In this document: piece by piece, positions 369 to 46,500 of the stretch | Position numbering within the stretch: the stretch's first letter is position 1 | How the letters are laid out: the number at the start of each line of letters is the position of its first letter | Source: Lingula anatina | Lineage: Eukaryota; Animalia; Brachiopoda | Assembly: GCA_051362555.1 (NCBI GenBank) | Contig: CM120640.1 | Location: forward strand, 51,128,788 to 51,192,787 | Direction of reading: 5' to 3' | DNA: 64,000 nucleotides | Made by a program: the position numbers and the translations under genes | Notes under the pieces: model-generated | What the model saw: only the letters and a program-made list of their open reading frames with translations | Databases searched by the model: none | What the model was told of the DNA's origin: nothing

Positions 369-3300
369 AATATATGTGCTCTGTGGCTACTGCTTCTGTC
401 CACCAAGGCAACAAAAAGTTTTAGTGTGGTCGAAATGGCAGAGGGATTTAATAACTTCCCAAAGGGACCGCTCCAGGATGATAGTGAGTATTAAACTACT
501 AAGCACGAAATGCTTTCTCTTCTAGCTAATTTGCATTAAAATGCTTCATAAGATGTCACTAAAGTGAAAGTAAAACCGAAGAGTTAGGCCTTTATGCTGG
601 TTCATTAATTAAGTAGTTACATGTATATCATACAATCCATTCTTTTCTAAACATTTTTGACATCGAAATTATAAAACACTACCAATTTTGTAATATGTGT
701 CATTTTGCTTAATAGGTGGAAGCTTGCGGATAAGAAGACAAACAGACGGCCAGACTGGTGAGATCTTATACATGTTCTTCTCTTTGATTTATATTTAATT
801 CTTGTATTATTTGTTGTGAGAAATGATACAAAGATTGAATATTGCGCCCCCCTCTCTTTGTCTTTCTTTATCGCTCTATATTAACTTGTTGTAACAGTGC
901 AATAAAATGTAATGAGTAACAGAGTCTTTAGCCTCGGTCACAACCGCCGTACGGGCTCTTACTGGCAGTTTGCGTCCTAATTTTGCGCAGAATCTCACGT
1001 CCCACGCAAGTCCTTCTTACGCAATTTCGAGTTCGCAGACCCCGTAAGCACGTACGGAGGATGTTGGACATGTCCAAAAGATTCTACGAATAGCCTGCGA
1101 ACAGCGAGGCCGCAAGCGTAACTTGCTCCCCTCGCACGGAGTTAGCAAGAGAGACGCGCGTTGTGCAAGACGCACGTCGCAAGCAATGAAGGAGCAAGTG
1201 CCCTTTGCGTGTTGAGTAAGGCGCACGCCCTCACAACTAACGAACAAAGTCGAGAGCACACCGGGAATGCGTCGCACGTGCGTCACCCCCCACGCCTGAT
1301 GTATAAAAGGCGTGCTCACGACGCACGCTCGTGTCTTTACAATGAACGTCCACTGTGTAACGTGTACGACAATTTCGTGCGTCCGGTTGTGACCGAGGCT
1401 TTTACTGTTGTAAGTTGTATGAAGTACCAAATACTGACGACATTCAGTAGGTGTAACTTGGAATGTATTTAAAGTTTCTTAAAGTTGTGTAGCAAACTAA
1501 AGCGTTTGTGGATACTTTGAACGTTGGAGACATGATCAAAGCATAAAATCGTTGACATTTTGAAATACAAAAACCTCATTTTAGAGACACTTCAGACTTA
1601 CCGTGTATCTCTACGGGTTTATTTCAATAAAAATGATTTTTAAACCTAACCTATTCTTGTCCTCCCTTTTCTACTCATCTTCTCTCTCATAATGATTGTT
1701 CTTTTTGTCTCTATTTTCAGTAAAAACTGCTGGAGGAACAGAATTTGTGATAATGTTTATGAACAATATTGTAGAGTCCAGTGACACCACACCCTTAGAA
1801 TTATATTACACTGGCGCTGATGACGCCATAAGCACAAGGATAAATGTCAATGTGACATACTACAGCCCGGCAAGTGGAAGCATACAGCATATAGAGCGTG
1901 TTTTGATGAGATCGACCGATATAGACTCCGTTCAATTAGACTACCAGCTGAGGACTATGACAAAAAATTCCATATCCAACTTTGGAGTTCAGGTGACATC
2001 CAGCGAAGCTATTATTCTGTACGGTATGAATAAAGCGCGTTATTCCTCCGACGGCTTTCTTTCTATCCCTGCCTACGTACCCGGAAAAGAGTTCATAACA
2101 GTTGGCTATCACCCTCCCACCACCGCATCGCAGATAGGCATAGTGGCCCAGCAGGACAACACCATGGTAACTGTGAGGCTACCGGCTAACAGAGTCTTAC
2201 CTGGCAACATCACTACGTCCATCGAGGTGAGGGATCCAAATACTCAAGCCATTGTTACAGCAGGAGGTACAATCACCGTTACACTTAATCGTTTGCAAAC
2301 CTACCTTATTGTAAGTAATGCCGATGACGGAGAACTACCAGCAGCTTTTAATTTGTTGAAGGGAGATTTGACAGGTACACATATAACCTCAGACAAAGAC
2401 ATATCTGTCTTCAGTGGTAACATCAGGACTTCGATATTGCCCCCTGCTAGTATAGATCAGCCTTCGAGAGACCATTTAGTAGAGCAGCTGCCACCTTTGG
2501 AGACATGGGGTCAAAACTTCATCACCGTTCCAGTCCCACGACCAGCGAGCACAGCTCCTCTGTACGATTTGTTCCGGATAATCAGCGGCTCCCTTAGTCC
2601 CAATACCATCACCATATATCATAGCAGTGATAACATTACAACACTAACCATCAACAACCAGGGTGGCTCTGTCGATGTCAAAATTGGTACCTACGCATAC
2701 ATCGTTTCTGCTTATCCAGTCTTGGTTGCCCAGTTTGTCTTGAGTCAGCAGGTTCTAAATGTTGACAAGGCAGATCCTAGTATGATCTTGGTCCCGCCAA
2801 TTGAACAATACCACGACGATTACCATTTCACAACACCAGCTGCAGTTGGTACCACTTACGACCATTTTTTCCTAATCGCAATACGAGACAACTTCAGGGG
2901 TTCTGTGTTACTTGACGGAGCGGCGCTACCGTCCGATACAACTTGGACCACTATACCTGGTTTAGGTGGATACAGTGGGGCCGTACTGAGTATCGCTGCC
3001 GGTGGTCACAATATTACTCACAATTCTGAGACTTTTTTGGGTATACTGTATGGAGCCGGGGACAGAGAGAGTTATGGACTGCCTGTTGGAATGCGCTTCA
3101 ATCGAATTGTTCCGGTAAGAATGATTAAATTAATATATGAACAATTTTACAGTTTGGAGAGATTACAATGTAGTCATTCAAATAATGTATAGTAAAACAT
3201 CTTTTTTCACCACCTTTTCTTCAGTCATAATATACCCTAAAGGTACCCCCCCTCCCCCGATGAAATAGTATCCTATATCATTGTTATCATCCTTATGTGA

Positions 3301-6300
3301 TGGTTGCACGACCAATCGCTTTAATTTGTTTGTCAGCCATTCCTTAGTTAGCAAAATACTTCGATGAATAATACCACACCTTTTTAAAACTATCAACCAA
3401 ATTAGCAACTGAGGTCAAGTACCGTACTAGTGGGTTATATTTTGGATAGTGTTAGCTTGAAATATTGTTCAAAAATTTTTTTTTAAAGATAATATACCAC
3501 AGCTAGCTGGCCTGTTAACGAAAAGAACTTATACATGCACAAAGCATAAATATATTCTTAAACAGACAAACTTGCAAGAAAAGGGGGGGGGTTGAATAAA
3601 GTGTCTAAGTGTCTGTAGGTTTTTATTGTTCTGTAACAAAACATGCGTGCTGTATGCCTAATATAACGGTCACTTATGGACATGGGCATACAATTTGTTA
3701 GCAACCATGTTTGAGTTGTGGGAGGACGACTTTTTGTCCTGACAAGAATTGACTCTCAGTATTCGTGTCTGTCAGGAAAAAATAAGTTACCGTTTCATTA
3801 AAATTTGCTTTGACGGAGTTATTCACACTAAGTCTGCTCTTTTGGTTGAATTCTGTTAAGTGGTTAACGAGCAGAACCTTTCCTAATTTTGAGGAAATCA
3901 AAAATGTTCAGTTTTTAAATTTAGAAATGCATTGGCCCTTGGTATGGTAAGTGATTAAAAGTAAAAACAACCCCATGGGAACCTTAATGCTCTCGTTTTA
4001 TGCTCAAAATCCGCCAACACTATGGGTTTGTCATTCAACTCCCCTAAAATAACACCGACCAAGCCTCAAATTTAACTGCCATGCTCTTTGAATTATCATA
4101 TTTGAAAAAGCAAAACAAAACGAGACAAAAAAAAAGTCAGTTTCGTCGCTCGTTAAGCAACTTATCCACTTTGTCAGACCTTCGAAAAAAATATCTTATA
4201 ATTAACTTAATGATGTCCCGTTTTCTTTTTTCAGCTTCCTCCAGGTATGAACGAGTGCTCAACCCCTTAACTCGTAGCTGAAAACAAAAGTTTGATGTTT
4301 AATCTTTGTTATACTTAGTATCAGAATATCAATATTTAAGTAATAGTCGTGATTCTATTATATGATATTGCTTAAATGTCACAAAATGTGATCAGAATTT
4401 AGTAGAAATGTGGGCAGATGAGCTAATTGATTTTAAAATAATCATAAATATCATTCTACGTGTTTTATGTTTTTAACAAAGGTAAACCGTTCTAAAACCT
4501 GGCTAATCAGTACTCTTTTACAGGCCCAACAGGACCAACTGGACCGACAGGTCCAACAGGGCCTACGGGGGCCACAGGCGCAACTGGTGAAACTGGTGCA
4601 ACTGGACCTGCAGGACCCAAGGGAGATACTGGTCCGAAGGGAGACACAGGGGCAACGGGAGCCACTGGAGGGACGGGTGCTGCAGGCAACACTGGGCCAA
4701 CTGGGCCAACTGGACCCACTGGCAGTAAAGGTGCTTCCGGAGAAAAGGGTGCCATTGGTTCCACTGGTCCAACAGGTTCCACCGGTGCCACAGGTGCTAC
4801 AGGTCCTAGAGGAGAAACTGGAGCAACTGGACCACGTGGAAGTGTTGGTGAAACTGGGCCGCAAGGTCCAAAAGGTGCTGTAGGTGCGACAGGCCCTGCT
4901 GGTATGACTGGTGCAACAGGTTTAAAGGGGGATAAAGGTGGCACCGGAGAAAAAGGAGCTATTGGCCAGACAGGAGCAACTGGCATGAAAGGCACCAGTG
5001 GACAACAAGGCCCAACTGGGCCCGTTGGGCCCACTGGTGTAACAGGGCAGAAAGGTAGCAAAGGGGAAATTGGCATCAAAGGAAACTCTGGAGTGGATGG
5101 TATAAAAGGTGAAAAGGGTGTACAAGGGGACAAGGGCAGCCTTGGTTCAACAGGACCGAAAGGGAATCAAGGGAATACCGGGAATACAGGGCCAGCTGGA
5201 GCAAAAGGACAGAAAGGTGAATTTGGCGCAACAGGGGAAACGGGACCTGTTGGCCCAACTGGACAAAAAGGAAATTCTGGTGCAATTGGCGCAACCGGAC
5301 CAGCCGGCAATAAGGGAGAAAAAGGGCAAATTGGTGCAGTAGGTGCCACTGGCGCCACAGGCCCAACTGGGGCAATTGGCCCAACAGGCCCTCAAGGACA
5401 GAAAGGAAATGTGGGTGCCAAGGGCGAAATAGGAGCCAAGGGATCGATAGGAAATACTGGTGCGACTGGCAGTACAGGCCAGAAAGGCGACAGAGGACAG
5501 ATTGGACCAACAGGTCCAACAGGATTGACAGGCTCCCAAGGTATACAAGGAGAAACGGGTCCTAAGGGAGACAAAGGCATGCAAGGAGAGAAAGGTACAC
5601 AAGGTGAAATTGGTCCGACTGGCCCCACAGGAAATAAGGGAGAGCAAGGAGCTAAGGGAAATGTTGGCAATACTGGACCAGTGGGAAGTAAAGGGGACAA
5701 GGGAGAAATTGGAGCAGTAGGTCCAACTGGCAGCACTGGCGCTACTGGGTCTAAAGGGGACAAAGGAGATCTTGGCCCCAAAGGTGTTCAGGGTCAAACT
5801 GGACAGACAGGTCCTCAAGGCAATACTGGAAATAAAGGAGAAGTAGGGCAAAAAGGAGAACAAGGAATACAAGGAAATACCGGTCCCACTGGGGATGTTG
5901 GGCGTACAGGAGAGAAAGGGGCCATTGGTGATAAAGGGCAGAAAGGTGTACAGGGTTTTACTGGAGCAACTGGATCTACTGGCGCCACAGGTGCTACAGG
6001 TGCCACAGGAGCCACTGGTCCTAAAGGTGATTTAGGATCAAAAGGTCAGAAAGGTGCTATTGGACAAACAGGAGTTCAAGGACCCAAAGGATCACTAGGG
6101 CCTACTGGAGCGACTGGCGTCACCGGGAATAAAGGTGAAAAAGGTGTTCAAGGCCAAATTGGAAATACTGGACCAAAAGGAGCCAAGGGAGAATTAGGCA
6201 ACACAGGGCCTACAGGAAGTGTTGGTCCGACTGGTGCAACTGGACCACAAGGGATTTCTGGAATTAAGGGGAATGTTGGAAACACAGGGCCTACTGGTTC

Positions 6301-9300
6301 TACGGGTGCGATTGGCTCCACTGGAGCCACGGGTCCAAAAGGAAATGTGGGAAATACGGGTCCAAATGGACAAAAAGGAGTGCAGGGAGAGAAGGGCAAT
6401 GAGGGGCCGACTGGAGCCACTGGAACTACAGGGGCCACAGGCCAAAAAGGTGCAATTGGTGGCACTGGCCCAACTGGGGCAACTGGTTTAACTGGTCCTA
6501 TAGGAGTAACAGGCGCGACTGGTGCTGTTGGACAGACGGGCCCAGCTGGAAGCACTGGACCAAAGGGTAATAAAGGAGAGATCGGTGCATCTGGGCCAAC
6601 TGGTCCAAAAGGCAATATAGGGGCAACAGGAAACACTGGAGCTACTGGTAGCACCGGAGCAACTGGACCCGTTGGTTCTACTGGTCCTGTAGGTTCTACT
6701 GGAGCAACAGGGGTTACTGGCGCTAAAGGGAATATAGGAGCCACGGGACCAATTGGTGCCACAGGAGCAACTGGTGCCACTGGTATCCAAGGTAACACAG
6801 GACCAAAGGGAGAAAAAGGTAATATAGGTAATACGGGAGCAACGGGTGACAAGGGTGCTCAGGGTAATACAGGACCCAAGGGACAGAAGGGGGCCTTAGG
6901 TGCTAAAGGGCAAAAAGGTGAATTTGGACAGAAAGGTGTCAAAGGAGAGTTAGGAGAAAAAGGTTCCGTTGGTGCGACAGGAGTAACTGGGTCCAAAGGA
7001 GAAAAAGGAAGCATTGGGAGTAAAGGTGACAAAGGTTCAATTGGTTCAACAGGACCAGTTGGGGCCACTGGCTCCCAGGGAAACACTGGACCCACCGGTG
7101 CAACGGGTTCCACTGGTCCAACTGGTGTTACTGGTGTGACAGGAGCTAAGGGCACTAAAGGTGATCAGGGTGTCCAAGGCAATACTGGCCCTGTCGGATC
7201 AACTGGTGCCACGGGCCCCACGGGCTCCACTGGGGCTACAGGCCAAACTGGACCAAAAGGAATTCAAGGGCAAACAGGATCCAAAGGATCTGTCGGGGAT
7301 AAGGGAAGTAAAGGTGATGTGGGAAATACTGGTGCTACCGGACCTGTGGGTGCAACTGGAGCTATGGGAGGCACTGGACCTGTAGGTGCCACTGGTCAGA
7401 AAGGTGCAGTTGGTGCCACAGGAAATACAGGGCCGAAGGGAAACATTGGAAACACTGGACCGATAGGTGCAACGGGGCCAACAGGGGCAACAGGAAGCAC
7501 TGGACCTGTTGGTGCCACTGGTCCTGTAGGTGCCACGGGTGGTAAAGGAAACAAAGGTGAAAGAGGTGCACAAGGTCTGACAGGAGCAACTGGTACAACT
7601 GGTCCTGTCGGTGCAACTGGTGTCACTGGTCCACAGGGAAATAAAGGCGATAAAGGTGAAATAGGCAACAGTGGCCCCATGGGTCCCAAGGGAAATGTTG
7701 GAGCAACTGGAGCCACAGGTTTAAATGGAAATACAGGGCCAACAGGGGTGACTGGACCGGTGGGTGCCACTGGAAATACAGGCCTCCAAGGTTTAACAGG
7801 ATCAACGGGTGTAACAGGTCTAAAGGGTCAGAAGGGTGAAACAGGGAATGTAGGCAGTACTGGTCCAACTGGCCCCGTGGGATCCACAGGCAAGTGCATT
7901 ACCTAGCTAAGCTGGATATAACGGGTTTAATATCTAGAGACGTATATATTAAATGCTAACCCTTAATGGAATCAATTTTAAATGCTTGTTTTAGGCATAA
8001 CCGTGTCGCTCAATTTATTTTTCGTTTATATGAATCATTGCAATTTATATATATAACATAAGCCTGAGTTTTTGAAAAAAATTTAATGATTAGGCACTAC
8101 TGGGCCACAGGGCAACTCTGGTCCAAAGGGCGAGATAGGTGAAAAGGGGGCTGTTGGCAGTACAGGTCCAGTTGGAAGCACTGGTGCAACAGGGCCAGTA
8201 GGTGCAACTGGAGCCACTGGACAACAAGGACCAAAGGGAGATGTTGGAAACGTAGGTCCCACTGGCCCTAAGGGTGCTGTAGGTGCCACAGGTGAAACTG
8301 GACTGATTGGTAATACAGGCCCGATGGGTCCTAAAGGCAATAACGGCAATACTGGAGCCACTGGACCTGAAGGTGCCACTGGTCCCCAAGGACCAAAAGG
8401 TATCCAGACGTCTTTTAGCCAGTCCTCTTCTTGTTGAACAATAAACTGGATAATTATAACTTTTGAAATGTCAAAAGTACTACATTATTCGTGATAAAAT
8501 ATATTGATACTTATAAGCAAATATTTCTGTAACGTGAAAAACAAAAATATTGTGTAGATTTTTAAAACTTCTATATTCTTTGGCACTGTTACTTATGGTC
8601 AGCATTGTTATTGCCAAATTTTCTCACTTAGGTGAAAAGGGGATTCAAGGAATTTCAGGCATTACCGGTTCTAAAGGAAACCAAGGCGAAAAGGGCGTTA
8701 TCGGACCCACTGGGCAAAAAGGGGAACAAGGAAATACGGGGTCAGTTGGCCCAACTGGTGCAACAGGACCTATTGGACCTAAGGGGAATGTAGGGGCAAC
8801 TGGATCCACTGGACCTGTTGGTGCGACAGGACCTACTGGTACAAAGGGAGAGAAAGGTGTCATTGGGTCCACTGGACCAAAAGGAGCCGTTGGCGATAAA
8901 GGAAGCAAAGGTGATGTTGGACCCATTGGTGCTACTGGCGCAACAGGGCAGAAAGGAGAGACTGGTGAAAAGGGTGTGCAAGGTATATCGGGGATAACAG
9001 GTGCCAAGGGAGAACAGGGCCTACGAGGACCAAAGGGTGAAGTAGGAGAAAAAGGGAGCAAAGGAGAGATAGGAAACACTGGTTCGACAGGTGCAACAGG
9101 TTCTGTTGGAGCAACAGGCCCCGTGGGAAATACAGGTAATGCTTTAATTATTGTGTTGTGAGCACTTTATGAATTTTAGCCATGTTTGAGTATTGCGGTA
9201 TATTTACGCGCGTTATTTATGGGAGGAACTCTCTAACATATCATATACATTAGCTGATGCTGTTTAAAACGGATTCTGATCATTCCATATTAGGGGCAAC

Positions 9301-10402
9301 TGGTCCATCGGGACCAACGGGAGGTACAGGACCACAGGGACCAAAGGGTGAACAAGGAAATAAAGGAGATCAGGGGAATTCGGGACCGATAGGTCCAGTC
9401 GGTTCCACTGGATCTGTTGGTCCGACAGGTGCGACAGGATCCACAGGTCCAGTTGGAAGTACGGGCCCCATTGGACCTACTGGAGGCACAGGGTCTATGG
9501 GACCCACAGGACCTACAGGGGTCAAGGGTGAACAAGGTGTCTCTGGGATAAAAGGCCTGAAAGGAAATGTTGGTAAGTTATATTTCCGTGCAGCAGTTTT
9601 AAGATGGTCGTTTTAAGATGAGTTTAATGATGTACGAAGAATAAACAATAAGCACAAGATAACAGTAAATATTCCTTACATTAGACATAAATATTATTGC
9701 GTTTAAGTGAATGTGTCATCGATTTGACTAGATTCTTCTTTTACGTTAAGGCGCTAAAGGAGAAATCGGAGAAAAGGGTTCCAAAGGAGATCTCGGGTCG
9801 ACGGGCTCTACTGGACCAACAGGTCCTTTTGGTCAAAAGGGTGACCGGGGAGCTACGGGACCAGTTGGAGCTACTGGACCACAAGGCATCGGTGGACCAC
9901 CAGGACAAAAAGGAGTCCCTGGCTCAGCTGGCCCAACTGGAGCAACAGGCCAGAAAGGTGAAGTTGGTGGTGTTGGAGCAACAGGAGCAACTGGTCCACA
10001 GGGTGCAACTGGAAACAAAGGTTCAAAGGGCGAAGTTGGGGTCAAGGGGGAGGTGGGTGCAACAGGAGTATCAGGACCCCAAGGTGCAGTTGGCGCAACT
10101 GGTTCGACTGGACCTATGGGTCCAACAGGAGAGAAAGGGGCGCTCGGCCAGAAGGGCGAGCGGGGATTGGTTGGACCAACTGGACTTAAAGGTAATGCAG
10201 GAGAAAAGGGAGAAAAAGGAGCATTGGGATCTAAAGGAGATACTGGATTAACTGGTGCTACAGGATCAAGTGGCCCCACTGGACCTCAAGGGAACAAAGG
10301 TGAACCAGGTGCTCAAGGGCCAAAAGGTGAACCTGGTTTTAATGGTACAAGAGGACTGAAGGGAGATGTTGGGCCACAAGGGCCACCAGGTAAATTATTT
10401 TT

Positions 10403-10487
<85 letters not shown>

Positions 10488-11118
10488 CATAACATCGTAC
10501 GGTTTTGGTCTTCTGAACGCACAAAACTGTATAATTTGCATATGCTATGATTTCAATTCAAAACAATACACGGAGCTCTTTTAAGTAGATAATATTAAGT
10601 GCACTTAATTCTTACTTTGTTCTTAGCATGCTACCTATTTTTCTTGTTCTTTTACAGGAGTAACCGGTAAGGATGTCCTTCCGATGTTAGGGGAATACAG
10701 ACTTGGTGAAATATTTTAAAAAAGTGATAACGAAAGCTTTTCGTGTACAATTATGCTGCATCAACTATCAATGGATGGTTAATACACAGATAAAGGTCAC
10801 TCTCCCCTTGATTAATTTGTGAAAATTTGGATAATACAATTATGATGCAACAAGCAGTGCTGAAAAATAACAATACTGAGCTGAAACATATAGCAAAAAA
10901 ATGTGTTATCTGTCCATCTCCCTTCAGTAACTTAGTCAGGTGTGTGTCTATTTCAGATGTCGACGAGTGTAACTTTAATAATGGTAACTGTAGTCAGCTG
11001 TGCATCAATACAATTGGGAGTTACTACTGCTGCTGCTACGATGGGTATGAACTAGAAAAAGAAAATCTAGTAGTGCATAGTCGATTGGCAGATGTTTCCC
11101 AATGTCTTGTCACAGGTA

Positions 11119-11176
<58 letters not shown>

Positions 11177-16987: not shown

Positions 16988-16988
16988 A

Positions 16989-17060: not shown

Positions 17061-17063
<3 letters not shown>

Positions 17064-17943: not shown

Positions 17944-17974
17944 TTCTTGGAAATTTAATTTTGGTAATCTTTAG

Positions 17975-18194
17975 TGCTAGAAGGGGTTTCTGTGTCTTCA
18001 GTAAATTTAGCATAGCAAATAACCCTGCTGCAACCATCTCGTTGGAGGCTGTATAAATGTGACTGGCGATAACATGTCGCATGTTATCAGCAGCAGTAGA
18101 AGTAAACCGTTCACTTTTATGATGTTACTGTATGGTGCAGGAGACAGAGAAAGCTACGCTTTTCCAGTGGGAATGGAGTTTATCAAAATTAATC
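17975..18194 (+). pseudogene. Degenerate duplicate of the 3' end of gene A's second IgGFcBD exon
   Basis: High nucleotide similarity to ~12841-13074 (e.g. gcatgttatcagcagcagtagaagt, ccgttcacttttatgatgttactgtatggtgcaggagacagagaaagctacgcttttccagtggg) with small deletions. The donor site is lost and the copy runs into a cac-rich repeat. Confidence 0.85.

Positions 18195-31216: not shown

Positions 31217-31218
<2 letters not shown>

Positions 31219-31254
<36 letters not shown>
31219..31254. repeat. (GA)n microsatellite
   Basis: Direct observation. Confidence 0.95.

Positions 31255-31258
<4 letters not shown>

Positions 31259-33942: not shown

Positions 33943-33989
<47 letters not shown>
33450..33989 (+). 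mobile_element. 5'-truncated non-LTR retrotransposon (CR1/L2-like) 3' end
   Basis: Frameshifted remnant resembling a LINE ORF2 C-terminus (VEIWNCL...SEDLDT(F)KK at ~33603-33673), AT-rich 3' UTR, short palindromic stretch (taagtgtatacactta), AATAAA at ~33936 and an (ATT)n tail at 33942-33989. The 5' boundary is approximate. Confidence 0.5.
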
Positions 33990-33990
<1 letters not shown>

Positions 33991-34100
33991 AGCACAATCT
34001 GATTGTTAATTATGATTGTGCCTTAATGATTTCAGTAAGCCAGACATAAAATATCAACATATGTATTTATATTAAATGTTCCTTTTTTACATTTCAGGCC

Positions 34101-34489
34101 ATGAAGTTACTACTACTTGCAGCAGTGCTGTTGGCAGTGGCGGCCCACGCTAGCCAGGCCAGCATCATAAGCGGCAACGAAGATATTCTAATCTATAATG
34201 ATAAACTGTTAAATCAAGACATCGAGGGTAAGTTATTTTTACACATGTATACAGATAGTATTGTTCTACAGAATCAGTTTATTGTATTGGAGCTGATTTT
34301 GAAGCAGGCCAGGCGTTACATAACATCTTTTTGCTGTGCATAAATGACATGTTTAGCTGATATATGTGCATATTTGTTTTGAACAAGTCGATTTTATTAT
34401 TCCAGAAATGAAGGAGCATATCCGAAGGAAGAGACAGACAACAACGAGTAGGAAAATACTGCTTTGAACGTCCTCCAACTGCCCCTACA

Positions 34490-34574
<85 letters not shown>

Positions 34575-37500
34575 AACACATACAGGGAAAAGGGGATATT
34601 TTATCCAGCCTTTCATCAATCATTTGTCATTCCATTTAATCATTTATCTATACAATAATTCATTATAAGTTTGTAGACATATTTTCATTGCCATTTTCAG
34701 TGCTCTTTCTGCATTGTAAATATTTTTTTCAGTCCAAAGACAAAATTCTGGTGGACGCCGCTTCCTGCTAATGTTCATGGAAAATCGAGTGGAATCAAAT
34801 ACGAATCCACCTCAAGACATTTTCCTCACACCCGCTAGAGATGCTACCAGTTTAGTTTCTGTCAATATCACAAACATTTTCGACACTTCATACAACCAAG
34901 TTATAACTTTAGTTCGTAATCAAGTTGTCTCGATAACTGTTGGGGCAAACGTTCGCATGATGAGCGGGAATATTATAGAAAACAAGGCAATTCTAATCGA
35001 GTCTACAGAAGACATCGTTGTTTACGGTGTAAACAGAGAAGCTTTTTCAGTCGACGGTTTCTTAGTCTATCCGATCGAAGCCATTGGATCGTCGTATTAT
35101 ACCGTAAGCTACACCCCAGCCACTACCAGGACAGAAATCGGCATTGCTTCTGTGTACGACAATACCCCTGTTCGCGTCACTCTACCGAACCGGGCTCTGT
35201 CTGTACAATGGGCAGGAACAACTTATGGCGCAAATGGAGTCATTGAATTCACTCTGAACAGTATGCAGACCGCTCTCATTCAGTCAGATACAGACGGCGA
35301 TCTCACAGGAACCAGAGTTGAAGTTACCGTTGCTTTAGTGAACGGCCAAATGCCTAAGCTCGCAGTATTTAGTGGGAATGTCCGCACAGCCGTGAAGCCC
35401 GTGACCAACAACCCTTCACGAGATCATCTGGTGGAGATGATACCGCCCATATCCTCGCTCGGAAGACGTTGGTGCTACGTGCCTATACCAAACAGAACAA
35501 CTGGAGATGTCGTTCGTATAGTTGCAAGCGAGTCTGGTGTTACAGAGCTAACCGTCGTTGATGACACAGGTTCTAGGTTTTATTCCATAGTTGGAGCCGG
35601 AAGTTACACTGAGCTAAATATTTTTAAGTACTCCTATCTGTACACAAATAAGCCCGCCCTTGTAGCCCAGTTTGTAATCAGTCAACTAACAAGTCAATCG
35701 CCTGAAGAAGCCGATCCTTCGATGATCATAGTTCCACCAATTGAGCAGTATGACAATGACTATCATTTTGCAACCCCAACTGGTGTAGCAAGTGCCTACA
35801 CTAATTATTTCTTACTGGTCATCCAGAATGCATCCAGAAGCGGAGTCTTGCTTGATGGTCAACCTGTTGCTAATGTTCAGTGGACCGACATCCCTGGCAC
35901 CATATATGTAGGAGGATATTTCACTGTTTCTGATGGAGCCCACAATATTAGCCACCCTGTTGCTGGTATTGACTTCATGGGTATCCTTTACGGCGCAGGT
36001 GATCGTGAGAGTTATGGTTTACCTATTGGAATGAGACTTGAAGAGATAAATGTTATTGTAAGTACTTATAACCTTTTCAAGTAAACGTGAACATAGGTTT
36101 TATAATTATTTTCACAAGCAATTCTATCTTAAAGAAAGATACATATTCAAAACTATTTAAGTAAAAATTTGAATCAAGCGTTATATATTTTCTGCTTGGA
36201 TGAAAGGATGCCCATTTTTTTTCTAATAGATGTTCCTTGTTTAATCATACAACCGCTTTAATTGTCTGAATTATTAATCATTTGATTTTCGACTTTCCTT
36301 TTTTAGCCTACAAGCCCCCCAGGTAAGTGAACTAAGAACACAACAAACTGTAACATTACTTAAATTGTGTTAATAACCAGATAATATTGTTATATCTAAA
36401 ACTGATTGACTTTTTATAATATTTTAATGTTATTGGTTGTTAAAGAAAGACCAAGGCAATATTTATTTTGAATACTTCCAGGTCCTCCAGGTCCAACAGG
36501 GCCAACTGGACCTGCCGGCCCAAAGGGTTCTCCAGGGGTAACTGGTCCTACTGGTCCAGTTGGGCCCACTGGTGCCATAGGCCCAAAAGGAGATGTTGGT
36601 CCTCAAGGTCCACAAGGCATCACGGGCAACACCGGTCCCCTGGGGCCCACAGGACCAAATGGCCCCATGGGTCCACAGGGTGATCCTGGATTCAATGGAG
36701 CTAAAGGTGACCAAGGTGCACAGGGTCCAACAGGTCTACAGGGTGTAGCTGGCCCTCAAGGGGATACGGGTCCAACAGGACCACAAGGTATCCAAGGGGT
36801 CCAAGGACCAACTGGTGCTGCTGGACAAAAGGGAGAGGTGGGTGCACAGGGACCAACTGGCTCTGAAGGACCACAAGGTGTACAAGGTCAGTCAGGTATC
36901 ACAGGAGCGACAGGACCTCAGGGGTTACCAGGTGCCCCAGGCTCATCAGGACCAACAGGGCCCCAGGGTTCTACTGGGGCTGTTGGAGCCACGGGCGCTA
37001 TTGGTCCAACAGGACCTGCGGGTGCTAAGGGCGAACAAGGAAATATAGGTCAAAAGGGAGCCCTTGGTAGCACAGGTCCAACAGGTCCAGTGGGAGCTAC
37101 AGGGATCCAGGGAAATGTAGGTCCAAGTGGGCCTACTGGCGCACAAGGTGTAATTGGTCCACCTGGTCCAACCGGCAGTAGAGGAGAAACAGGTACCACA
37201 GGTCTTCAAGGCCCAATAGGTCCACAAGGTCCCACAGGATCCAAAGGTGACCAAGGAGTAACAGGCGCTGTTGGAGCAACAGGAGCTACAGGACAAAAGG
37301 GAGAACAAGGAAATGTTGGTCCATCAGGGCCACAGGGTCCAACTGGTCAAGCTGGTGCTGTAGGGCAAACAGGAGTAAAAGGTAATGTTGGCGCAACAGG
37401 TGCAGTGGGACCAAATGGAGCAACTGGACAAAAGGGCAGTCAAGGTAACACTGGACCACAAGGTAATGTTGGCGCAACTGGATCTCAGGGCGCATCAGGG

Positions 37501-40500
37501 CCGACGGGAGCGACTGGCCCTACAGGTGCCCAAGGAGCAGTTGGCCCCACTGGAGCAACTGGTGTAGCAGGTGCAACAGGAACCAAAGGATCAAAAGGAG
37601 AAGTGGGAGCAACTGGCACACAGGGCGTGGCGGGACTAACTGGTCAGAAAGGTGAAATTGGTAATAAAGGTGATAAAGGGAATGTTGGCGCCATTGGCCC
37701 AACTGGTCCACAAGGTGCCATTGGTGTGTCAGGCGTCCAAGGACCAACTGGCAGTAAGGGCGATATAGGAGCTAGTGGACCGACTGGAGCAATAGGCCAA
37801 AAGGGAGCATTGGGTGAGAAAGGGAATGTTGGTCAGAAAGGCGACCAGGGAGCCATTGGTCCCACTGGAGCTACAGGAAACACTGGTCCACAGGGTACAC
37901 AAGGTGTGAGCGGTCCAACTGGTGCAACAGGAAGCAAAGGTGAAGTAGGGGCAAAAGGAGTACAGGGTAATTCTGGGGCAAATGGACCAACTGGAGCCAC
38001 CGGTGCAGTAGGAGCCACAGGGCAAAAAGGACAACAGGGAGTGTCTGGAGCTGTTGGGCCGACGGGTGCTACTGGAGCTACTGGACTTAAAGGAAATGTA
38101 GGAGCTACGGGAGCCCAAGGTTTCACAGGCGCAGTAGGCCCTACTGGTGCAACGGGAGCAAAGGGAGCCATAGGAGACCAGGGCCCAGTGGGAGCGACTG
38201 GTGCCGTTGGGCCTCAGGGCAATACTGGACCTGTTGGAGCTAAGGGACAAAAAGGTACTGTGGGACAGAAAGGAGAGCAGGGCATCCAAGGTGTGTCTGG
38301 TGTCTCAGGTCAACAAGGGGCAGTTGGTGCAACGGGAGCACAAGGAAGCTCTGGCCCGACTGGAGCCACTGGGATAACGGGTGCAAAGGGAAACGTTGGT
38401 GCTGTGGGACCAACTGGGGCTCAAGGGCTTGCTGGTGCAAGCGGACCTACCGGAGCAAAGGGAAATGTGGGTGCAACGGGTGCAGTGGGTGCAACGGGAG
38501 TAGCAGGAGCATCTGGACCGACTGGGGCGACTGGTCAAAAAGGTGATCAAGGCAACGTAGGTCCAACTGGTGCAACTGGAGCCCAAGGAGCCACTGGTCA
38601 GAAAGGTGCTCAGGGTAACCAGGGGGTTTCCGGTGCACAAGGTCCACAAGGTAATGTCTGATGTTATATGAAACATTTGCTGTCAGTGCATCCTTCTTTT
38701 TCCACTTTTTAGTGATATTTTTATTTGTACCAATTTGAAATACAAATGTTAAAAGTACATACAGATATCCATGTTAAGGAAATGGGAATAAAAAGCTGTA
38801 TATAGCACTTTTTTAACATATGTATAAAAAGTTCGTATATTCGTTTCGTTTACAAGCAATAGACAATTTGCACATTTTATTCATTGAATTGGCAGGTGTT
38901 ACTGGTGCGACTGGTCCACAGGGTGCCCAAGGTCTCACGGGAGCAATAGGTCCACAAGGATCAACAGGTCCTCAAGGACCAACAGGTGTAACTGGATTAC
39001 AGGGTGCGTCTGGAGTGACTGGAGCAACTGGGCCAACTGGACAAAAAGGCACAAAAGGAGCCCAAGGTGTATCAGGTGTAGCAGGTCCAACCGGCGCAAC
39101 TGGACAAAAGGGCTCTGTAGGTGCTGTAGGTCCAACAGGGGCACAAGGAATCCAAGGGGTCAGCGGTGCTAATGGACCGACAGGAGCTACAGGTACGGAA
39201 TTCTTCGTATATATGCAGAGCAGTTAAATTGGTTATGAGAGAGAGGGGGAGGAGAATCAGGGTACATAATAAGCAGTGCTTTTTATGAACACGATTTCCG
39301 TGACATTGATTATAGAGAGAACAGGACTTGTAGTTAAACACTTTACTCCATTAATTCAAACATTTTAATTTTACAGGCCCAACAGGTCAGAAGGGTGAAC
39401 AAGGAATACAAGGAAACTCTGGTGCTGTAGGACCAACTGGTAGCACAGGTCCACAGGGTAACGTTGGTCCAACTGGAGCTACCGGTGCAACTGGCGCTCA
39501 GGGTCAATCAGGTTTACAGGGTCCTACTGGTAACACAGGGGGTACTGGGCCAACAGGAGCCATTGGTGCCACAGGGAGCAAAGGGCAAAAAGGAGTGCAA
39601 GGAGCATCTGGAATAGCTGGACCTACGGGTGCAGTTGGCTCTAAAGGACAGAAGGGAGATGTCGGGGCTGTTGGAGCTAAAGGAGCACAGGGTATACAAG
39701 GTGTTAGTGGCAATATTGGTCCCACAGGGGCAACTGGTCCTCAAGGACAGAAAGGTGAAGTTGGAAACCAGGGAGCATCGGGTGCAGTTGGAGCAAAAGG
39801 TCAGAAAGGAGCGTTGGGAGCGACCGGAGCTGTTGGTGCCACTGGAGCTACTGGTCCACAGGGCCAGACAGGAGATAAAGGAGCCCAGGGAGTTTCTGGA
39901 GTTCGAGGTTTAACTGGTCCTACCGGCGCCACTGGTGCAACTGGTGTCCAAGGCCAATCCGGAGCAGCTGGGCCCACAGGAAGCACAGGAGCTACGGGAC
40001 CAGTTGGAGCTACTGGCCCCAAAGGTAACTTGACTCAAATATTTTTCAGTGTCTCTAAACTTTGATTCTGGATACTGCTTAAAATATTTTAATGTGTGAG
40101 GAAACCTACGGATACAAAAAAATAGGGTGTAACTTAACTGGAGGTGCAACTTAACTTCTTTTAGGTGAAATCAACTGCATTGTGTTCATTAATTAATAAC
40201 AGTTAGCCTTTAACACACACACATACACACACATTTTTGTTTAATTCTATTAAAACGTGTTTGTTTGTTTAGGTGAAGTTGGGCAGAAAGGATCACAAGG
40301 AATACAGGGTATCAGTGGAGCAAATGGGCCAACTGGAGCTACTGGGCCTCAAGGTCAAAAAGGTCAGAAAGGTATACAAGGGGTATCTGGTATTGCAGGA
40401 CCAACAGGAGCTACTGGTCCTCAAGGCCAGAAGGGGGAGCAGGGTATACAGGGTGTTTCAGGAGCAAATGGACCCACTGGAGCCACAGGTCCGCAAGGCC

Positions 40501-43500
40501 AGAAAGGTCAACAAGGTATACAGGGAGTATCTGGATTGGCAGGCCCAACAGGTGCAACGGGACCTCAAGGTCAGAAAGGCCAAAAGGGTATACAGGGTGT
40601 ATCTGGAATAGCAGGACCAACCGGAGCAACTGGTCCTCAAGGTCAGAAGGGTCAGCAAGGTGCTCAAGGTACTTCTGGGGCAGTTGGAGCGAAAGGTCAG
40701 AAGGGACAACAGGGTGCATTTGGACCCCAAGGCCAGACAGGAGCAACAGGCCCTGCGGGACTGCAAGGCGTGTCCGGTGCTGCAGGACCAACTGGATCAA
40801 CAGGTCCAACTGGGAGCCAGGGCCCTGTTGGGGCAACTGGCCCACAAGGTAAATGCCCTTTCTTTGAATTATATATTACTGTTAAAAGAAATGATTGAAT
40901 GATCCATAAAATAATGATTGATATTATTCTTACTGCTGTAATATGTTATGAAATTTGAAAAAGATATTAAGAAAATAAAACGCTGGTTTCTGTCTTAAGG
41001 TGTTCAAGGTCAGAAGGGCCAGAAAGGAGTGCAAGGTGTATCTGGAATAGCTGGACCTACCGGAGCTCAGGGCCCACAAGGTTTTACTGGCCAGAAGGGT
41101 ACAAAGGGTGACACTGGTGCAACTGGTGCTCAGGGTACATCCGGTAGTATTGGTCCCACAGGAGCAACAGGCCCAGCTGGTGCAAGAGGTGAAACAGGAG
41201 TTAAAGGCGAAAAAGGTATGTTTGCATCCTTGGATGCTATTTATGTGTATTTATATAAAATTATGCGTTTCCTATTACTGAAACTGCTTTGTTCAAAGGA
41301 TAAATTTCTTGGACCAACATAAGCAGTTTGTCAAACCTTTCTGAACTGTCTTGAAGGAACATGATTTTCTTTTGAAATGTAGACAAACTTTCTTTCCATT
41401 TTTTTTCATGATGCCTTTTTGTACATTTTATACGACTCGAATATTTATTTGAATTTCACTATGTTATCTTTTATTCTATTCCAGGATCGGTTGGTGCAAG
41501 TGGGCCCCAGGGTGTGACAGGAGCAACCGGAATTACTGGAACGAAGGGCCAAAAGGGTCAGCAAGGTGTGTCAGGCCAGATCGGTCTTCAGGGTTCAAAG
41601 GGTACTAAGGGAGATCAAGGAATCCAGGGTGTATCAGGTGCAAGAGGTGCAAATGGACTTAACGGTGAAAAGGGTCAAAAAGGAACAGTTGGAGCGACAG
41701 GGGCAACGGGAGTAAATGGTGCCCAGGGACCAAAAGGAAATCAAGGAGACAGTGGCGCAATTGGACCACAAGGTAAGTTTCGTATTTTATTGCCATTATA
41801 TAAAACTTAGGATGCACATACTCAATTTTATTGCTTTGTTAACTCGTTTAATGATGGCTAGTCATCTCATATTTATTTAAGCTAGTCATCTCAAGTTCAT
41901 TAAAGCTACTCTGGTCACTTAAAAAGTAAATCGCAAAAACATTGCACAGTGCGCTTACTCCGATTTCAAAGAATTACATAATATAAATTGTCCCCTTGTA
42001 AACGTTCGCATTTTGCCAATTTCAATTTTTTAAACCAAAATTTAACGTTATCTTGAAGGACCTACTGGTGCGAAAGGAGAAGTTGGAGCCCAGGGAATTC
42101 AAGGCATTAAAGGTGAAAAGGGTATTCAGGGTAACTCTGGAGCCGTAGGACAAAAGGGGTCAGTGGGTGCAGTTGGACCAACAGGTGCCAAGGGAGAAGT
42201 GGGTGCAGTAGGAGCCACAGGCCAAAAAGGTTCAATTGGTGCATCTGGTCCAACAGGTGTCCAAGGTCTAAATGGTCCTACAGGAGCCACTGGTCCAACG
42301 GGTGCTCAGGGAGCCTCTGGAGCAATAGGTCAAAAAGGTAACAATGACATTCCTCTTGGCTCTGAGATATCTACTTGTATGCAATGTAGTCTCATGTGAA
42401 AAGCTGTCTGCTGTAGGTAGTTTCTTAATGATTTATATATCCTTCAAATCTTTTAACTAAAGCCTAACTAACCTTGTCTTTATTGCACAGGTGAACAAGG
42501 AATACAAGGTCCTGTGGGTGCTAAAGGAAATCAAGGAGCCTCTGGAGCAGTTGGCCAGAAGGGAGAACGTGGTTTACAAGGTTTACCTGGTAATACAGGA
42601 CAAGTTGGTCCCACAGGACAGCAAGGTCCATCTGGTGCTGCTGGTGCCAATGGTTTACAGGGTCCTAAGGGATCAGTAGGATCAACAGGTCCAACAGGAC
42701 AGGTAGGTGCCAAAGGTGCACAGGGCCAAAAAGGTGAGGTCGGTTCATCCGGCGCCGTAGGACAGAAGGGAGAACAGGGTGTTGTAGGACCTACCGGCGC
42801 TCAGGGTCTCCAGGGAATAAAAGGACAAAAGGGTGTGAATGGTGTTCTTGGTCCACAAGGCCCAACAGGTCAGAAAGGTCAGCAGGGTGCGTCTGGAATA
42901 GCAGGACCTACTGGTCTCACAGGAGGTATTGGTCCTGTTGGCCCAACCGGTAGCACTGGCCCCCAAGGATTACAGGGGGTAGTTGGAACAAAAGGACAAA
43001 AAGGCGATCAGGGTGTTCAAGGACAACAAGGACCAATGGGTGCGCAAGGTCCCCCCGGTGTCACAGGTTTACAGGGAACTCCAGGTGTGCAGGGTATTAA
43101 GGGAGAGCGAGGAGCCCCTGGAATGAATGGTAAGTTGACTGTTAGTTTTAACAATCTTTACCAAATTGATTACACAATCATATATATTAAGCTATCTGGT
43201 ATGGAGGCCCATAGTATAAATACACGTATGAGTTCGTTTTTAGGATGGATTAAGACATTTTCTTTCTTTCTTTTTTTTTTTTTTTTTTTTTGACGTTTTG
43301 TTGCAAAACATCAATGTAAGGTTTTTGAAATGTTCGTGGTGCTCAATATGGTCTTGATATTGTACATATGTGACTACTGAAGTTCTTCTTCTCTTTTTAA
43401 GATCACCAATTCAAGTGAACAATGTATGATATTTAGCATTTCTTCATATCACCATAACACAAACGGCTCATTATTGATAGCATGTAACACTTTGTGCATA

Positions 43501-46500
43501 TGTGTCATTACAGATACAGATGAGTGTGCAACTAATAACGGAGGCTGCGGAGATATCTGCATCAACACGATTGGGTCCTACTATTGTACATGCAGCGAAG
43601 GGTACCATTTGGCCCGAGCTAATGTTTCGGTCTACACCAATAGAGTACCCAGATCTCAGTGCCCAGCGGATATGGCGGGGAAAAGGAAAAAGAGACAAAG
43701 TAATATTTATATATAATTTAAAATGTAGTAAAATAAATATGTTATTTAAAAAGAATAAACTGTTGGTAACGGTTCTGCACGACGTATATTTTCTGTAAAA
43801 TTACACTGTTAGATACAAACCTTGTGTATTTTATTTCATGGTATATTTATCGGTGAAATAAAAATTACATAATTTGACAGAATCCATCAATTAAATCTAA
43901 TTTTTTTTTTATTACAGCATCTTCAACACTTCTTGATGCTATTGGCACTGATTACATGGTGATGTTCACAGAAAATCGAGTGCAAGACGGTCCAGGTCCT
44001 AACCCATTTTTTGAATGTTTCATCACTCCTGGGAGGGACACGATCACAGTAGCCTCTCTAAACATTACCTATTACAATACTAACGGAGATTTAGTGAGAT
44101 TGCCAAGGATGGTGCTTGGTGGTCAGGTATTGAAAGAAACTCTTGATGAGCCGACCCTGGTACTGAGAGGAAGCGTCAAGGAAAGAAAGGGTGTTAGAAT
44201 TCAGTCGAGTGAGGATGTGGTGGTCTATTGTCTAAACAAAAATAGCTTTTCAACAGACGGCTATTTGGCTCTTCCGAAGGATGCTCTAGGCAATAGATAC
44301 TATACTGTCTCTTACTCTCCTCCTAGATTCCAAACTGAATTAGGTATTGCAGCCACAGAAGACAACACTCTTGTAACCGTTACACTCCCTCGTAAGTTCA
44401 ACGCTAGCGAGCCCGATTTGCAGGTTACTTACAACGGCCAAACGTATCGTAACAACGACGTTATATCAGAAACTCTCCAAATGTACGAGGTCCTTCAACT
44501 ACAAAGCGATGGGGGCACACCAGGTGATTTGACCGGTGCACTGGTTGTGTCAAGTAAAACTGTTGCTGTCTTCAGTGGTAATGTCAGAACCAATATCCTC
44601 GGTTTGACACCAGGCAACACTCCTTCACGTGACCATTTAGTAGAACAGATGATCCCTGTGACATCTTGGGGCAGAGACTATGGTACGGTACCCATTCCAG
44701 ACCGAACAATTGGTGACTTCTTCAGGATCGTTGCCGCCGAGGACAACACGGTGATTACACGTATTTCAAGCAACGGCGAGACAAAAACTTACACCATCCC
44801 ATTCGCTGGCGGTTATACCCAGGATGAATTTTCTTCCGGTGTATACTACCGTGTGTATGCAAACAAACCAATCCTCCTCCAACAAATGGTGAAGAGTCAG
44901 ACAAGCAGTGCAGAACTTGCTGATCCATCCATGATCACCGTAGTGTCGGTCGAGCAGTACAGCAACGACTATCACTTCCTGCTCCCAACATCAGTATCAG
45001 GATCCTATACGCATCATTTAATGATAATTATGAAGTCCCAGTTCACTTCTACGCTACGATTAGACGGAGCCGCTCTGAGTCTAACATGGAACCCGATCCC
45101 CAATAATCCGAACTCCCCACAAAATGACGGTTTGGTTGGGGCCCACGTCACGGTGACCGGAGAGAGCCAAAGCCATGTTATCAGAAGCACAGACTCTAAT
45201 GTTAACTTCATGGTGATCATGTACGGCAATGGAGACAGGGATTCGTATGGTCTACCGATTGGGATGAAACTTTTACTTCTGAACCCGGTAAGTACTTGAA
45301 AGCGCATAAAAGCGAATGGGTGAAATGGATGTAGAGCTACTTCGAATGCTCTATTTAAATGTCGTGCATGTCCTCTTTTTTTTAATGATACTTAAATTTA
45401 GTGCCTTGTTTGGTTATACTTTTTTTAAATTTAATTTAAATTAGAAATATTTCGATATATCATTTTAAAAGATTTAATATAAATATATATTTAAAAGATG
45501 TCTTTTAGTTACCCGACAAGCTCTGTTGAAAAATCTAACGAATGTATCTTTTCTTTTCTTTTGCAGCCGGTGCAATCAGAAAGTGAGTTTTTTTTTAATT
45601 ATAATATTACAATAAAGCAAATTTATGTAATTATTCAGTATCGATCTAGCATTCCCATTTTTATTTTACTTGGCTAGTTTAGTTGTCCTTGTTGAAACGA
45701 TTAACACGTGTGTCTTTATATACACGTATTACTCCATTTCAGTTTGTAACACTGATGCTGCTGGTACTTGTTGTACATGTCACGTTGGAAACAATGTCTA
45801 CCTTCCCTACGAGGGCGCTGCGCAGGCCTCTTGTTGTTTACGTGAGTACAAATATCCTTCATTTTAAATATCCTTCATTTTAATTTTAACTTAAAAGTTT
45901 TAATGATGGGTCCCATTTATTCACACACACGCACGAACACATTGACACGGATATACATGTATATATTACTTAAAATGATTATTTGATCTTTTAAAGATTG
46001 AAATACTCGTATCACTTTTCCAGTGGAAAATATCCGTTGTTACTATCCATGTTGTGGGCGAAAATACTGTGACTGTTTGGTGAATGGCGTCTACATCCCA
46101 TTAAACGAGACCTTCTGTGAAAGTAAGTACAGTACAAGTGCACTTAATTTCACCTTATTTACGGTCATTTCAAAACATAGCTTCTTGCTGTGTGAAATAA
46201 TTTGAATCGACGTACAATATTTCAAAAAATTGGTGAATGTTTGGAATTGTAAATTCAGATTATTGGAAAGAATTATTTCATCATTTTACCGCTTTTCACT
46301 TTCGAATTTTTTTTCAAAACAGACACGAATGAATGCCAGATTGATAACGGACAATGCGAACACACTTGTACTGATACAGTATTTGGCCTCGGCCAGAACA
46401 ACGGTGGATACAACTGCAGTTGCTTCCCTGGGTATCAGTTATCACTGGACTTCCACGAGTGTATAGGTAAGGTACCCGATCAACTACATGTAGCTTTTAG

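What the first reader, a model, noticed from the sequence alone, without database searches (positions are those of the whole stretch)
716..43920. Four conserved R-X-(K/R)-R|QT proprotein-convertase sites, one before every IgGFcBD
Seen: A exon 716-757 RIRR|QT, A exon 11484-11519 RKKR|QT, B exon 34406-34447 RRKR|QT, B exon end 43699 KRKKR|QT (T completed across the splice). Both first-site exons are 42 nt. Established: R-X-K/R-R is the furin consensus, and N-terminal Gln can cyclise to pyroglutamate. Inference: each precursor is cut into a released IgGFcBD-collagen-EGF rod and a membrane-retained IgGFcBD-Cys-EGF-TM stub. The stub could act as a membrane-tethered C-propeptide for trimer registration, or re-capture the rod through IgGFcBD contacts.
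Basis: partly seen in the sequence, partly recalled or inferred. Interest (0 to 1): 0.75.

Follow-up and report, generated by a model that had tools for sequence, protein, structure and literature searches.

The report
Giant membrane-tethered procollagens with furin sites
Two neighbouring invertebrate genes encode very long, threonine-rich collagens built on a membrane anchor, and furin-type cut sites at both ends of the collagen part would likely trim off a short leader and release a rod about 0.5 micrometre long, a collagen design that my searches did not find described.

Summary
All four R-X-K/R-R|QT motifs lie in frame in two tandem ~3000-aa genes: signal peptide, short leader, site 1, IgGFcBD, collagen, EGF, site 2, IgGFcBD, Cys-rich linker, 2 EGF, TM, tail. 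RNA reads splice the site exons in, and no skipping joint appears among those shown. They are the only R-X-K/R-R motifs in either protein. They are copies of one exon module, not four independent events.

The helices are uninterrupted (567 and 568 triplets). Their X/Y sequences have diverged to background, yet they share three intron positions. Y is Thr-rich and almost free of Pro.

Most likely these are type I membrane-tethered procollagens: site 1 removes a leader, and site 2 releases a globule-plus-rod molecule from a membrane stub. Cleavage, pyroGlu, stub-driven registration and re-capture are untested. Closest named relatives are Lingula IgGFcBD-collagen-EGF-TM proteins, which begin with QT straight after the signal peptide and lack furin sites. 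The processing logic is known (procollagen V, ZP proteins, MACITs); this architecture was not found in print. The host taxon is undetermined. Bold reading: a gene for annelid-type cuticle collagen.

The parts
369..483 (+). Gene A exon: rest of signal peptide and leader (first coding exon lies upstream of the window)
   Evidence: RNA joint 480>715; the loose end before 368 carries two in-frame ATGs; model
716..757 (+). Gene A site-1 exon, RIRR|QT (R at 727)
1721..3114 (+). Gene A IgGFcBD 1 exon
   Evidence: PF17517 E=4e-56; RNA
4235..4244 (+). Gene A micro-exon after IgGFcBD 1
   Evidence: letters between joint 3114>4521 (table 5c)
4524..10389 (+). Gene A collagen exons (4524-7889, 8094-8399, 8632-9135, 9294-9572, 9751-10389): 566 uninterrupted triplets
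10658..10666 (+). Putative 9-nt micro-exon (567th triplet); not seen in the RNA output
   Evidence: splice signals and frame only
10957..11115 (+). Gene A EGF 1 (7 Cys, one extra)
   Evidence: EGF_CA and FXa_inhibition above cut-off
11484..11519 (+). Gene A site-2 exon, RKKR|QT (R at 11489)
11707..13076 (+). Gene A IgGFcBD 2 exon
   Evidence: PF17517 E=8.9e-60
13441..14272 (+). Gene A micro-exon 13441-13453 and 12-Cys linker exons 13741-13827, 14174-14272
   Evidence: RNA joints; no Pfam match
14468..15285 (+). Gene A EGF 2 (14468-14611) and EGF 3 (15172-15285)
16554..16852 (+). Gene A last coding exon: TM helix, cytoplasmic tail, stop
   Evidence: hydropathy; joint 15283>16552
34098..34227 (+). 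Gene B first coding exon: signal peptide and leader
34406..34447 (+). Gene B site-1 exon, RRKR|QT (R at 34423)
34733..36057 (+). Gene B IgGFcBD 1 exon
   Evidence: PF17517 E=3e-47
36307..36322 (+). Gene B micro-exon after IgGFcBD 1
   Evidence: letters between joint 36057>36478 (table 5c)
36482..43129 (+). Gene B collagen exons (8 exons): 568 uninterrupted triplets
43514..43699 (+). Gene B EGF 1 plus site 2, KRKKR|Q(T) (R-K-K-R from 43684)
43918..45287 (+). Gene B IgGFcBD 2 exon (completes the Thr of QT)
   Evidence: joint 43699>43918; PF17517 E=7.7e-60; all-beta model pLDDT 82
45567..46122 (+). Gene B micro-exon 45567-45582 and 12-Cys linker exons 45743-45841, 46024-46122
46323..46815 (+). 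Gene B EGF 2 (46323-46466) and EGF 3 (46711-46815)
47054..47442 (+). Gene B last coding exon: TM helix, cytoplasmic tail, stop

Best explanation
Genes A and B encode expressed type I membrane proteins with a 567/568-triplet uninterrupted collagen helix between two IgGFc-binding domains, each domain preceded by an R-X-K/R-R|QT site, and they are likely membrane-tethered procollagens that a furin-type convertase would cut twice, removing a ~30-residue leader and releasing a globule-plus-rod molecule from a membrane stub. Shown: gene structure, splicing, domain order, sites, helix length and composition. Inferred steps: (1) three chains are held together in the ER membrane by the C-terminal stub (IgGFcBD2, 12-Cys linker, EGF2-3, TM) and zip from C to N. 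(2) The helix is stabilised by KGE/KGD salt bridges and probably by glycosylated Y-Thr rather than Y-Hyp. (3) A Golgi or cell-surface convertase cuts at site 1 and site 2. (4) The freed ~2,220-aa chain (206-209 kDa without sugar; about 487 nm as a helix) assembles into an extracellular fibre or cuticle-like matrix, and the 78-80 kDa stub stays in the membrane. (5) Both new N-termini begin with Gln, which could cyclise.
For: R-X-K/R-R occurs only at these 4 places in two ~3000-aa proteins and is rare in shuffles. The site exons are spliced in. The motif is kept although the leaders are only 22% identical (8 of 37) and the four domains are 34-42% identical pairwise. Each site lies in a short polar linker 6-12 residues before the domain's conserved start. 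Lingula P0001, P0181 and P0182 begin with QT right after their apparent signal peptide (read by eye), so a mature QT start appears conserved and is reached here by a second route. Y-Pro is concentrated at the C-end: all 5 in A lie in the last 87 triplets, and 4 of 10 in B in the last 88, which fits C-terminal nucleation. KGE/KGD counts are 57 against a background of 18+-3.5 (A) and 31 against 5.9+-2.2 (B). Precedents: furin removes the C-propeptide of pro-alpha1(V) (PMC10381214); ZP proteins need C-terminal furin-like cleavage to assemble, and TM domains can nucleate collagen folding (PMC11304992); (Gly-Pro-Thr)10 folds only when galactosylated (PMC11923368).
Against: No cleavage was observed; there are no protein data. 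None of the 5 collagen-bearing homologues among 281 proteins (all Lingula) has an R-X-K/R-R. Only 6 of 174 homologous domains with upstream sequence have one within 30 residues, and none of the 6 is followed by Gln (the set includes bacteria, isoforms and single-exon fragments). So the design was not shown to be conserved outside this genome. No trimerisation motif such as COLFI was found in the stub exons. Tissue and host taxon are unknown.
Confidence: 0.7

Rival explanations
1. Cleaved but not released: site 2 is cut as a maturation step, and rod and stub stay together (non-covalently, via IgGFcBD contacts, or via a disulfide), giving a cell-surface-anchored 0.5-micrometre bristle. This includes the first reader's re-capture idea.
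For: A's EGF1 carries a seventh Cys. Lingula relatives and locus L020 have collagen-EGF-TM with no furin site, so tethered forms exist in the family.
Against: B's EGF1 has 6 Cys and both stub linkers have an even 12, so no shared free Cys is evident. Little but EGF1 lies between the helix end and the cut.
Confidence: 0.17
2. A and B chains form a heterotrimer (a sub-question that is compatible with the best explanation); the stubs select and register the chains.
For: 566/567 against 568 uninterrupted triplets, although X/Y identity in register (0.16-0.19) equals background (0.167+-0.013). Three intron positions are shared counted from the C-end (71, 102, 158 triplets; simulated p=2.8e-5). The genes are tandem, and both are expressed in runs X7 and X9.
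Against: No A-B Lys-acid enrichment near the true register, whereas the within-chain KGE/KGD enrichment in both chains suits homotrimers. Equal length could also be inherited and held by fibre packing. Read counts A:B were 5900:1779 (X7) and 4456:1186 (X9), at slightly different thresholds, and depth is a poor measure.
Confidence: 0.4
3. The sites are remnants of module duplication: only site 1 is used, or neither, and the protein works full-length.
For: All four sites come from one duplicated module, and Lingula relatives lack them.
Against: The motif and QT survive in 4 of 4 copies while neighbouring residues and the helix have diverged, the helix to saturation.
Confidence: 0.1

Closest known systems
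Lingula anatina IgGFcBD-TSP1-collagen-EGF-TM proteins (LOC106163541 = P0001, LOC106153735 = P0181/P0182) and IgGFcBD-Thr-rich collagen LOC106178224 (P0173); compare the 'EGF-domain collagens' of Luo et al. 2015, PMC4595640
   Same: IgGFcBD, collagen followed by Ca-binding EGFs, C-terminal TM, apparent mature start QT (P0001, P0181/2); Thr-rich Y position (P0173, 82%).
   Different: Helix of 53 triplets or short interrupted runs rather than 567; three IgGFcBD and TSP1 repeats N-terminal to the helix; no IgGFcBD C-terminal to it; no R-X-K/R-R. I did not check that these entries are the ones the paper discusses.
Fibrillar procollagen V (furin-cleaved C-propeptide; PMC10381214 citing Imamura 1998)
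   Same: Uninterrupted helix with globular ends; furin motif C-terminal to the helix.
   Different: Here no COLFI domain, about 1.7 times the helix length, almost no Y-Pro, and the C-terminal part is membrane-anchored.
MACIT collagens XIII/XXIII/XXV, COL-99 and C. elegans cuticle collagens (PMC7848082, PMC11304992, PMC10538796)
   Same: Transmembrane collagens with furin-type sites that allow release or secretion.
   Different: Those are type II with an N-terminal anchor, interrupted short helices and, for MACITs, N-to-C folding. Here type I, uninterrupted, with the shedding site C-terminal to the helix.
ZP-domain apical matrix proteins (PMC11304992)
   Same: Assembly needs C-terminal cleavage at a furin-like motif; the type I membrane precursor is recalled knowledge.
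   Different: No ZP domain; here the stub retains a ~700-residue part with a second IgGFcBD.
Annelid cuticle collagens, notably Riftia pachyptila (PMC11766948)
   Same: Very long helix with a globular domain; stability linked to glycosylated Thr rather than Hyp.
   Different: Host here undetermined; 487 nm is shorter than the 1.5-2.4 micrometres I recall for vent-worm cuticle collagens; no annelid was among the named hits.
FCGBP and amphibian PRIT proteins (PMC11237159)
   Same: IgGFcBD (PF17517), repeated in an extracellular protein.
   Different: No VWD domains, no GDPH motif; the spacer is a collagen helix, not disordered repeats.

Membership tests
Furin/PC substrate | R-X-K/R-R consensus | tested here: met
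   4 of 4 sites
Furin/PC substrate | Site on the luminal side of a secretory protein, in a linker | tested here: met
   Hydrophobic N-terminus and C-terminal TM by hydropathy scan (no SignalP run); sites lie outside Pfam domains
Furin/PC substrate | Cleavage shown | not testable with these tools
   No protein data; ProP not available
MACIT transmembrane collagens | Type II topology (N-terminal TM) | tested here: not met
   TM near the C-terminus; definition in PMC7848082
MACIT transmembrane collagens | Interrupted triple helices | tested here: not met
   One run of 567 / 568 triplets
Fibrillar procollagens | Long uninterrupted helix | tested here: met
Fibrillar procollagens | COLFI C-propeptide | tested here: not met
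   The exons C-terminal to the helix matched only IgGFc_binding and EGF families above cut-off, or nothing
Fibrillar procollagens | Gly-X-Pro(Hyp)-rich helix | tested here: not met
   Y-Pro 0.9% (A) and 1.8% (B)
Lingula-type IgGFcBD-collagen-EGF-TM proteins | IgGFcBD + collagen + Ca-EGF + C-terminal TM | tested here: met
Lingula-type IgGFcBD-collagen-EGF-TM proteins | TSP1 repeats, three N-terminal IgGFcBD, short helix | tested here: not met
Annelid cuticle collagen | Very long helix with a globular domain | tested here: inconclusive
   Predicted released form has one large globule and a 487-nm helix, shorter than recalled values
Annelid cuticle collagen | Thr rather than Hyp in Y (Riftia type) | tested here: met
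   Y-Thr 41% (A) and 29% (B); Y-Pro under 2%
Annelid cuticle collagen | Annelid host | tested here: inconclusive
   Organism coded; named animal hits are brachiopod, bryozoan, mollusc, amphioxus, fish
Annelid cuticle collagen | Thr glycosylation and cuticle location | not testable with these tools
   Needs protein and tissue data
FCGBP / gel-forming mucin | VWD domains and GDPH autocleavage | tested here: not met
   No GDPH; no VWD in the exons scanned

The most novel reading that the evidence does not exclude
These are genes for annelid-type giant cuticle collagen (one globule plus a very long glyco-Thr helix), made as a type I membrane-tethered procollagen in which a second IgGFcBD-Cys-EGF-TM module replaces the COLFI C-propeptide and furin releases the rod at the epidermal surface: a separate route to fibre-forming collagen in spiralians.
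Probability: 0.3. Interest if true: 0.8.

Novelty: new variant of a known kind. Interest (0 to 1): 0.55.

Why it matters
The transmembrane collagens described in the reviews I read are type II, and the fibrillar ones register through a soluble COLFI propeptide. A natural type I precursor with a 567-triplet helix would be a real case of membrane-nucleated C-to-N folding followed by furin release. It would give the functionally unannotated IgGFcBD a testable role, and it offers a sequence candidate for the Thr-stabilised cuticle collagens known mainly from biochemistry. If cleavage is only routine maturation, the sites themselves are ordinary and the interest lies in the architecture.

Tried and rejected
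No whole genome is held. No RNA holder was listed by index; the runs came by species label. Run X4 laid 0 reads and X1 9 reads on gene B; X2 laid 8 partial reads on gene A.

Complex prediction of IgGFcBD A2 with B2: no verdict (0.20 and 0.27, mark 0.34; alignments not used). It is no evidence either way. Trimers of the stub were not modelled.

Structure searches: no PDB sequence relative. Foldseek gave TM-scores of 0.15 or less. The VIA search ranked TM1070 (1nc7) first, Z 10.7, rmsd 4.2 over 109 residues, with ASRT 2ii7 at Z 7.3. These are ASRAH beta-sandwiches with a predicted sugar-binding role (PMC2739507), a lead only.

Helix analyses: no periodicity in charge, hydrophobicity or Thr above the shuffle 95% level, and no A-B salt-bridge or residue-class correlation in register, except Pro-X at offset +1 (r=0.137, best of 121 offsets).

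The 12-Cys linker matched no Pfam family and none of 303 fetched proteins (best E 0.52). The tree groups A2+B2 with P0027 and a Lingula domain (96.6/85) and A1+B1 with P0065 (90.6/70); support is moderate and it gives no taxon (26 sequences chosen from the top 60 of 234 domains). Atlas searches gave no taxon. Rfam and ARAGORN found nothing. Earlier findings: none.

Literature: ten full-text searches listed no paper describing an IgGFcBD-collagen TM protein with furin sites or naming an annelid cuticle collagen gene. Most subscription papers are outside that library. Mann 1996, Gaill 1995, Bulleid 1997 and Shoulders and Raines 2009 were not held. Supplements of PMC4595640 (tables of EGF-collagens) were not opened and may list the Lingula relatives.
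Full report
Observation. Exon models built from splice signals give open frames of 2,994 aa (A, lacking its first coding exon, which lies upstream of the window) and 3,009 aa (B). The order in both is signal peptide, short leader, R-X-K/R-R|QT, IgGFcBD (PF17517, E 3e-47 to 8e-60), collagen, EGF, R-K-K-R|QT, IgGFcBD, 12-Cys linker, two EGFs, TM and tail. R-X-K/R-R occurs exactly twice in each protein, always before QT. Shuffles of the non-collagen parts gave two or more such motifs in about 1% of 20,000 trials and the six-residue form 0.00035-0.0008 times per protein. The four are copies of one exon module, so they count as conservation of one feature, not as four independent chances.

RNA. Raw reads under the same species label were laid on both genes. 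They are mostly 95-99% alike to the window, so they come from other individuals. Joints on both sides of exons 716-757 and 34406-34447, the joint out of 11484-11519 (85, 70, 76 reads) and the joint 43699>43918 that completes the last Thr (12, 19 reads) are all present. None of the joints shown (15 of 20 and 15 of 17; 3 more were dropped at repeats) skips a site exon. The joint into exon 11484 and the 9-nt micro-exon at 10658 were not shown, because neighbouring repeats were masked. Three of three oligo-dT runs covered gene A and two of two covered gene B; the other runs laid 0-9 reads. Of the coding differences that were listed (the first 40 rows per call), none falls in a site-1 exon; 20 of 33 changed codons in A and 26 of 40 in B were synonymous. 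The site-2 regions were not among the rows shown.

The helices. Each is one uninterrupted run: 567 triplets in A (566 without the unconfirmed micro-exon) and 568 in B, about 487 nm at 0.286 nm per residue (the rise is recalled). Y is Thr in 41% and 29%, Pro in 0.9% and 1.8%; X is Pro in about 23%. In-register X/Y identity between A and B equals background, yet three intron positions coincide counted from the C-end (p 2.8e-5 by simulation). The helices are therefore old collinear paralogues whose length has been kept. KGE/KGD motifs are strongly enriched within each chain, with no cross-chain enrichment and no axial periodicity. Equal length argues for a heterotrimer or a shared packing rule; the salt-bridge pattern suits homotrimers. 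I leave that open at 40:60.

Relatives. The best-scoring named hits are Lingula proteins with three IgGFcBD, TSP1 repeats, 53 triplets, EGFs and a TM. Read by eye, they start with QT directly after the signal peptide. Another Lingula protein joins IgGFcBD to Thr-rich collagen (P0173). One of 78 metagenome loci, L020, has IgGFcBD followed by short collagen exons, EGFs and a TM-like exon (read by eye). None of the 5 collagen-bearing proteins among 281 has R-X-K/R-R. Six of 174 homologous domains, all from one unnamed group, have a leader ending in R-X-K-R before Glu or Asp, and two further proteins (one named as amphioxus) have RVKR|Q ahead of an EGF that precedes the domain. A leader cut by a convertase thus recurs in the family, but the internal second site and the giant helix were seen only here. 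The searches were word-limited and length-limited, so this is weak evidence of absence. The host taxon was not determined.

Mechanism. Shown: structure, splicing, sites and composition. Inferred: with the anchor at the C-terminus and Y-Pro triplets gathered at the C-end, the stub probably brings three chains together at the ER membrane and the helix zips from C to N. PMC11304992 states that TM domains have acted as nucleation centres in other collagens. Stability would rest on salt bridges and glycosylated Thr (PMC11923368). A convertase would then remove the leader and free a chain of 2,234 or 2,216 residues (209 or 206 kDa) from a stub of 714 or 741 residues (78 or 80 kDa). I put this at 0.7; cut-but-retained at 0.17; sites unused at 0.1. 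PyroGlu formation is chemically plausible (established knowledge) but untested. The IgGFcBD model is all-beta (pLDDT 82); its best fold match, to a predicted sugar-binding family, is only a lead.

Comparison. It works like procollagen V, whose C-propeptide is removed by furin (PMC10381214), and like ZP proteins and MACITs, which are released from the membrane by furin-type cuts. It is not a member of those families: it has no COLFI, is type I rather than type II, and has no interruptions. Its composition and predicted shape resemble annelid cuticle collagens, described as very long helices with globular domains and, in Riftia, glycosylated Thr (PMC11766948). Against that identity: no annelid among the named hits, and a helix shorter than the 1.5-2.4 micrometres I recall.

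What I saw of each paper. Passages: PMC11766948, PMC7333891, PMC8334717, PMC4595640, PMC7848082, PMC11923368, PMC11237159, PMC10381214. Passages plus section 64: PMC11304992. Abstract plus section 18: PMC10538796. First third of the text: PMC2739507. Bulleid 1997, Imamura 1998, Mann 1996 and Gaill 1995 were seen only as citations in those papers. Ten searches listed no description of this architecture.

Verdict. The feature is real. The furin sites alone are an ordinary processing signal. The combination of a type I anchor, a 567-triplet Thr-rich helix, IgGFcBD at both ends and conserved length in two saturated paralogues is a new variant of membrane-shed collagen. Interest 0.55.

Noticed in passing
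window 4524-10389 and 36482-43129: The two collagen helices have the same length (566/567 against 568 triplets) and three shared intron positions, although their X/Y sequences are at background identity.
   Followed up: yes
window 17972-18194: A partial copy (86% identical) of the 3' end of gene A's IgGFcBD 2 exon lies just downstream of gene A.
   Followed up: partly
window about 50600-55935, minus strand: A neighbouring gene read by eye as signal peptide, an unrecognised domain (exons near 55201-55480 and 54267-54494), Thr-rich mucin-like exons, a possible Ig-like exon, TM with a Cys cluster, and tail. No Pfam match below E 0.01 and no Atlas hit.
   Followed up: partly
window 926-1395: Intronic stretch of gene A with RNA depth and many loose ends, probably a transcribed repeat from elsewhere in the genome.
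   Followed up: no
window 7890-7891: The largest collagen exon of gene A ends at a GC donor; RNA shows the matching joint 7887>8092.
   Followed up: partly
window 13741-14272 and 45743-46122: A 12-Cys linker in two small exons, conserved between A and B, with CC pairs; no Pfam family and no match among 303 fetched proteins. Candidate for inter-chain disulfides.
   Followed up: partly
window 10957-11115: EGF1 of gene A has a seventh Cys; EGF1 of both genes has a long insertion before the last Cys.
   Followed up: no
all four sites: Thr at P2' and further Ser/Thr follow each cut; O-glycosylation there could regulate cleavage, as recalled for some furin substrates (for the sequence).
   Followed up: no
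L020 3400-7170: An unnamed animal locus encoding signal peptide, IgGFcBD split by introns, short collagen, three EGFs and TM, with no furin-QT motif found.
   Followed up: partly
proteins P0272, P0275-P0278, P0280: An unnamed group of secreted IgGFcBD proteins with a leader ending in R-X-K-R before Glu or Asp.
   Followed up: partly
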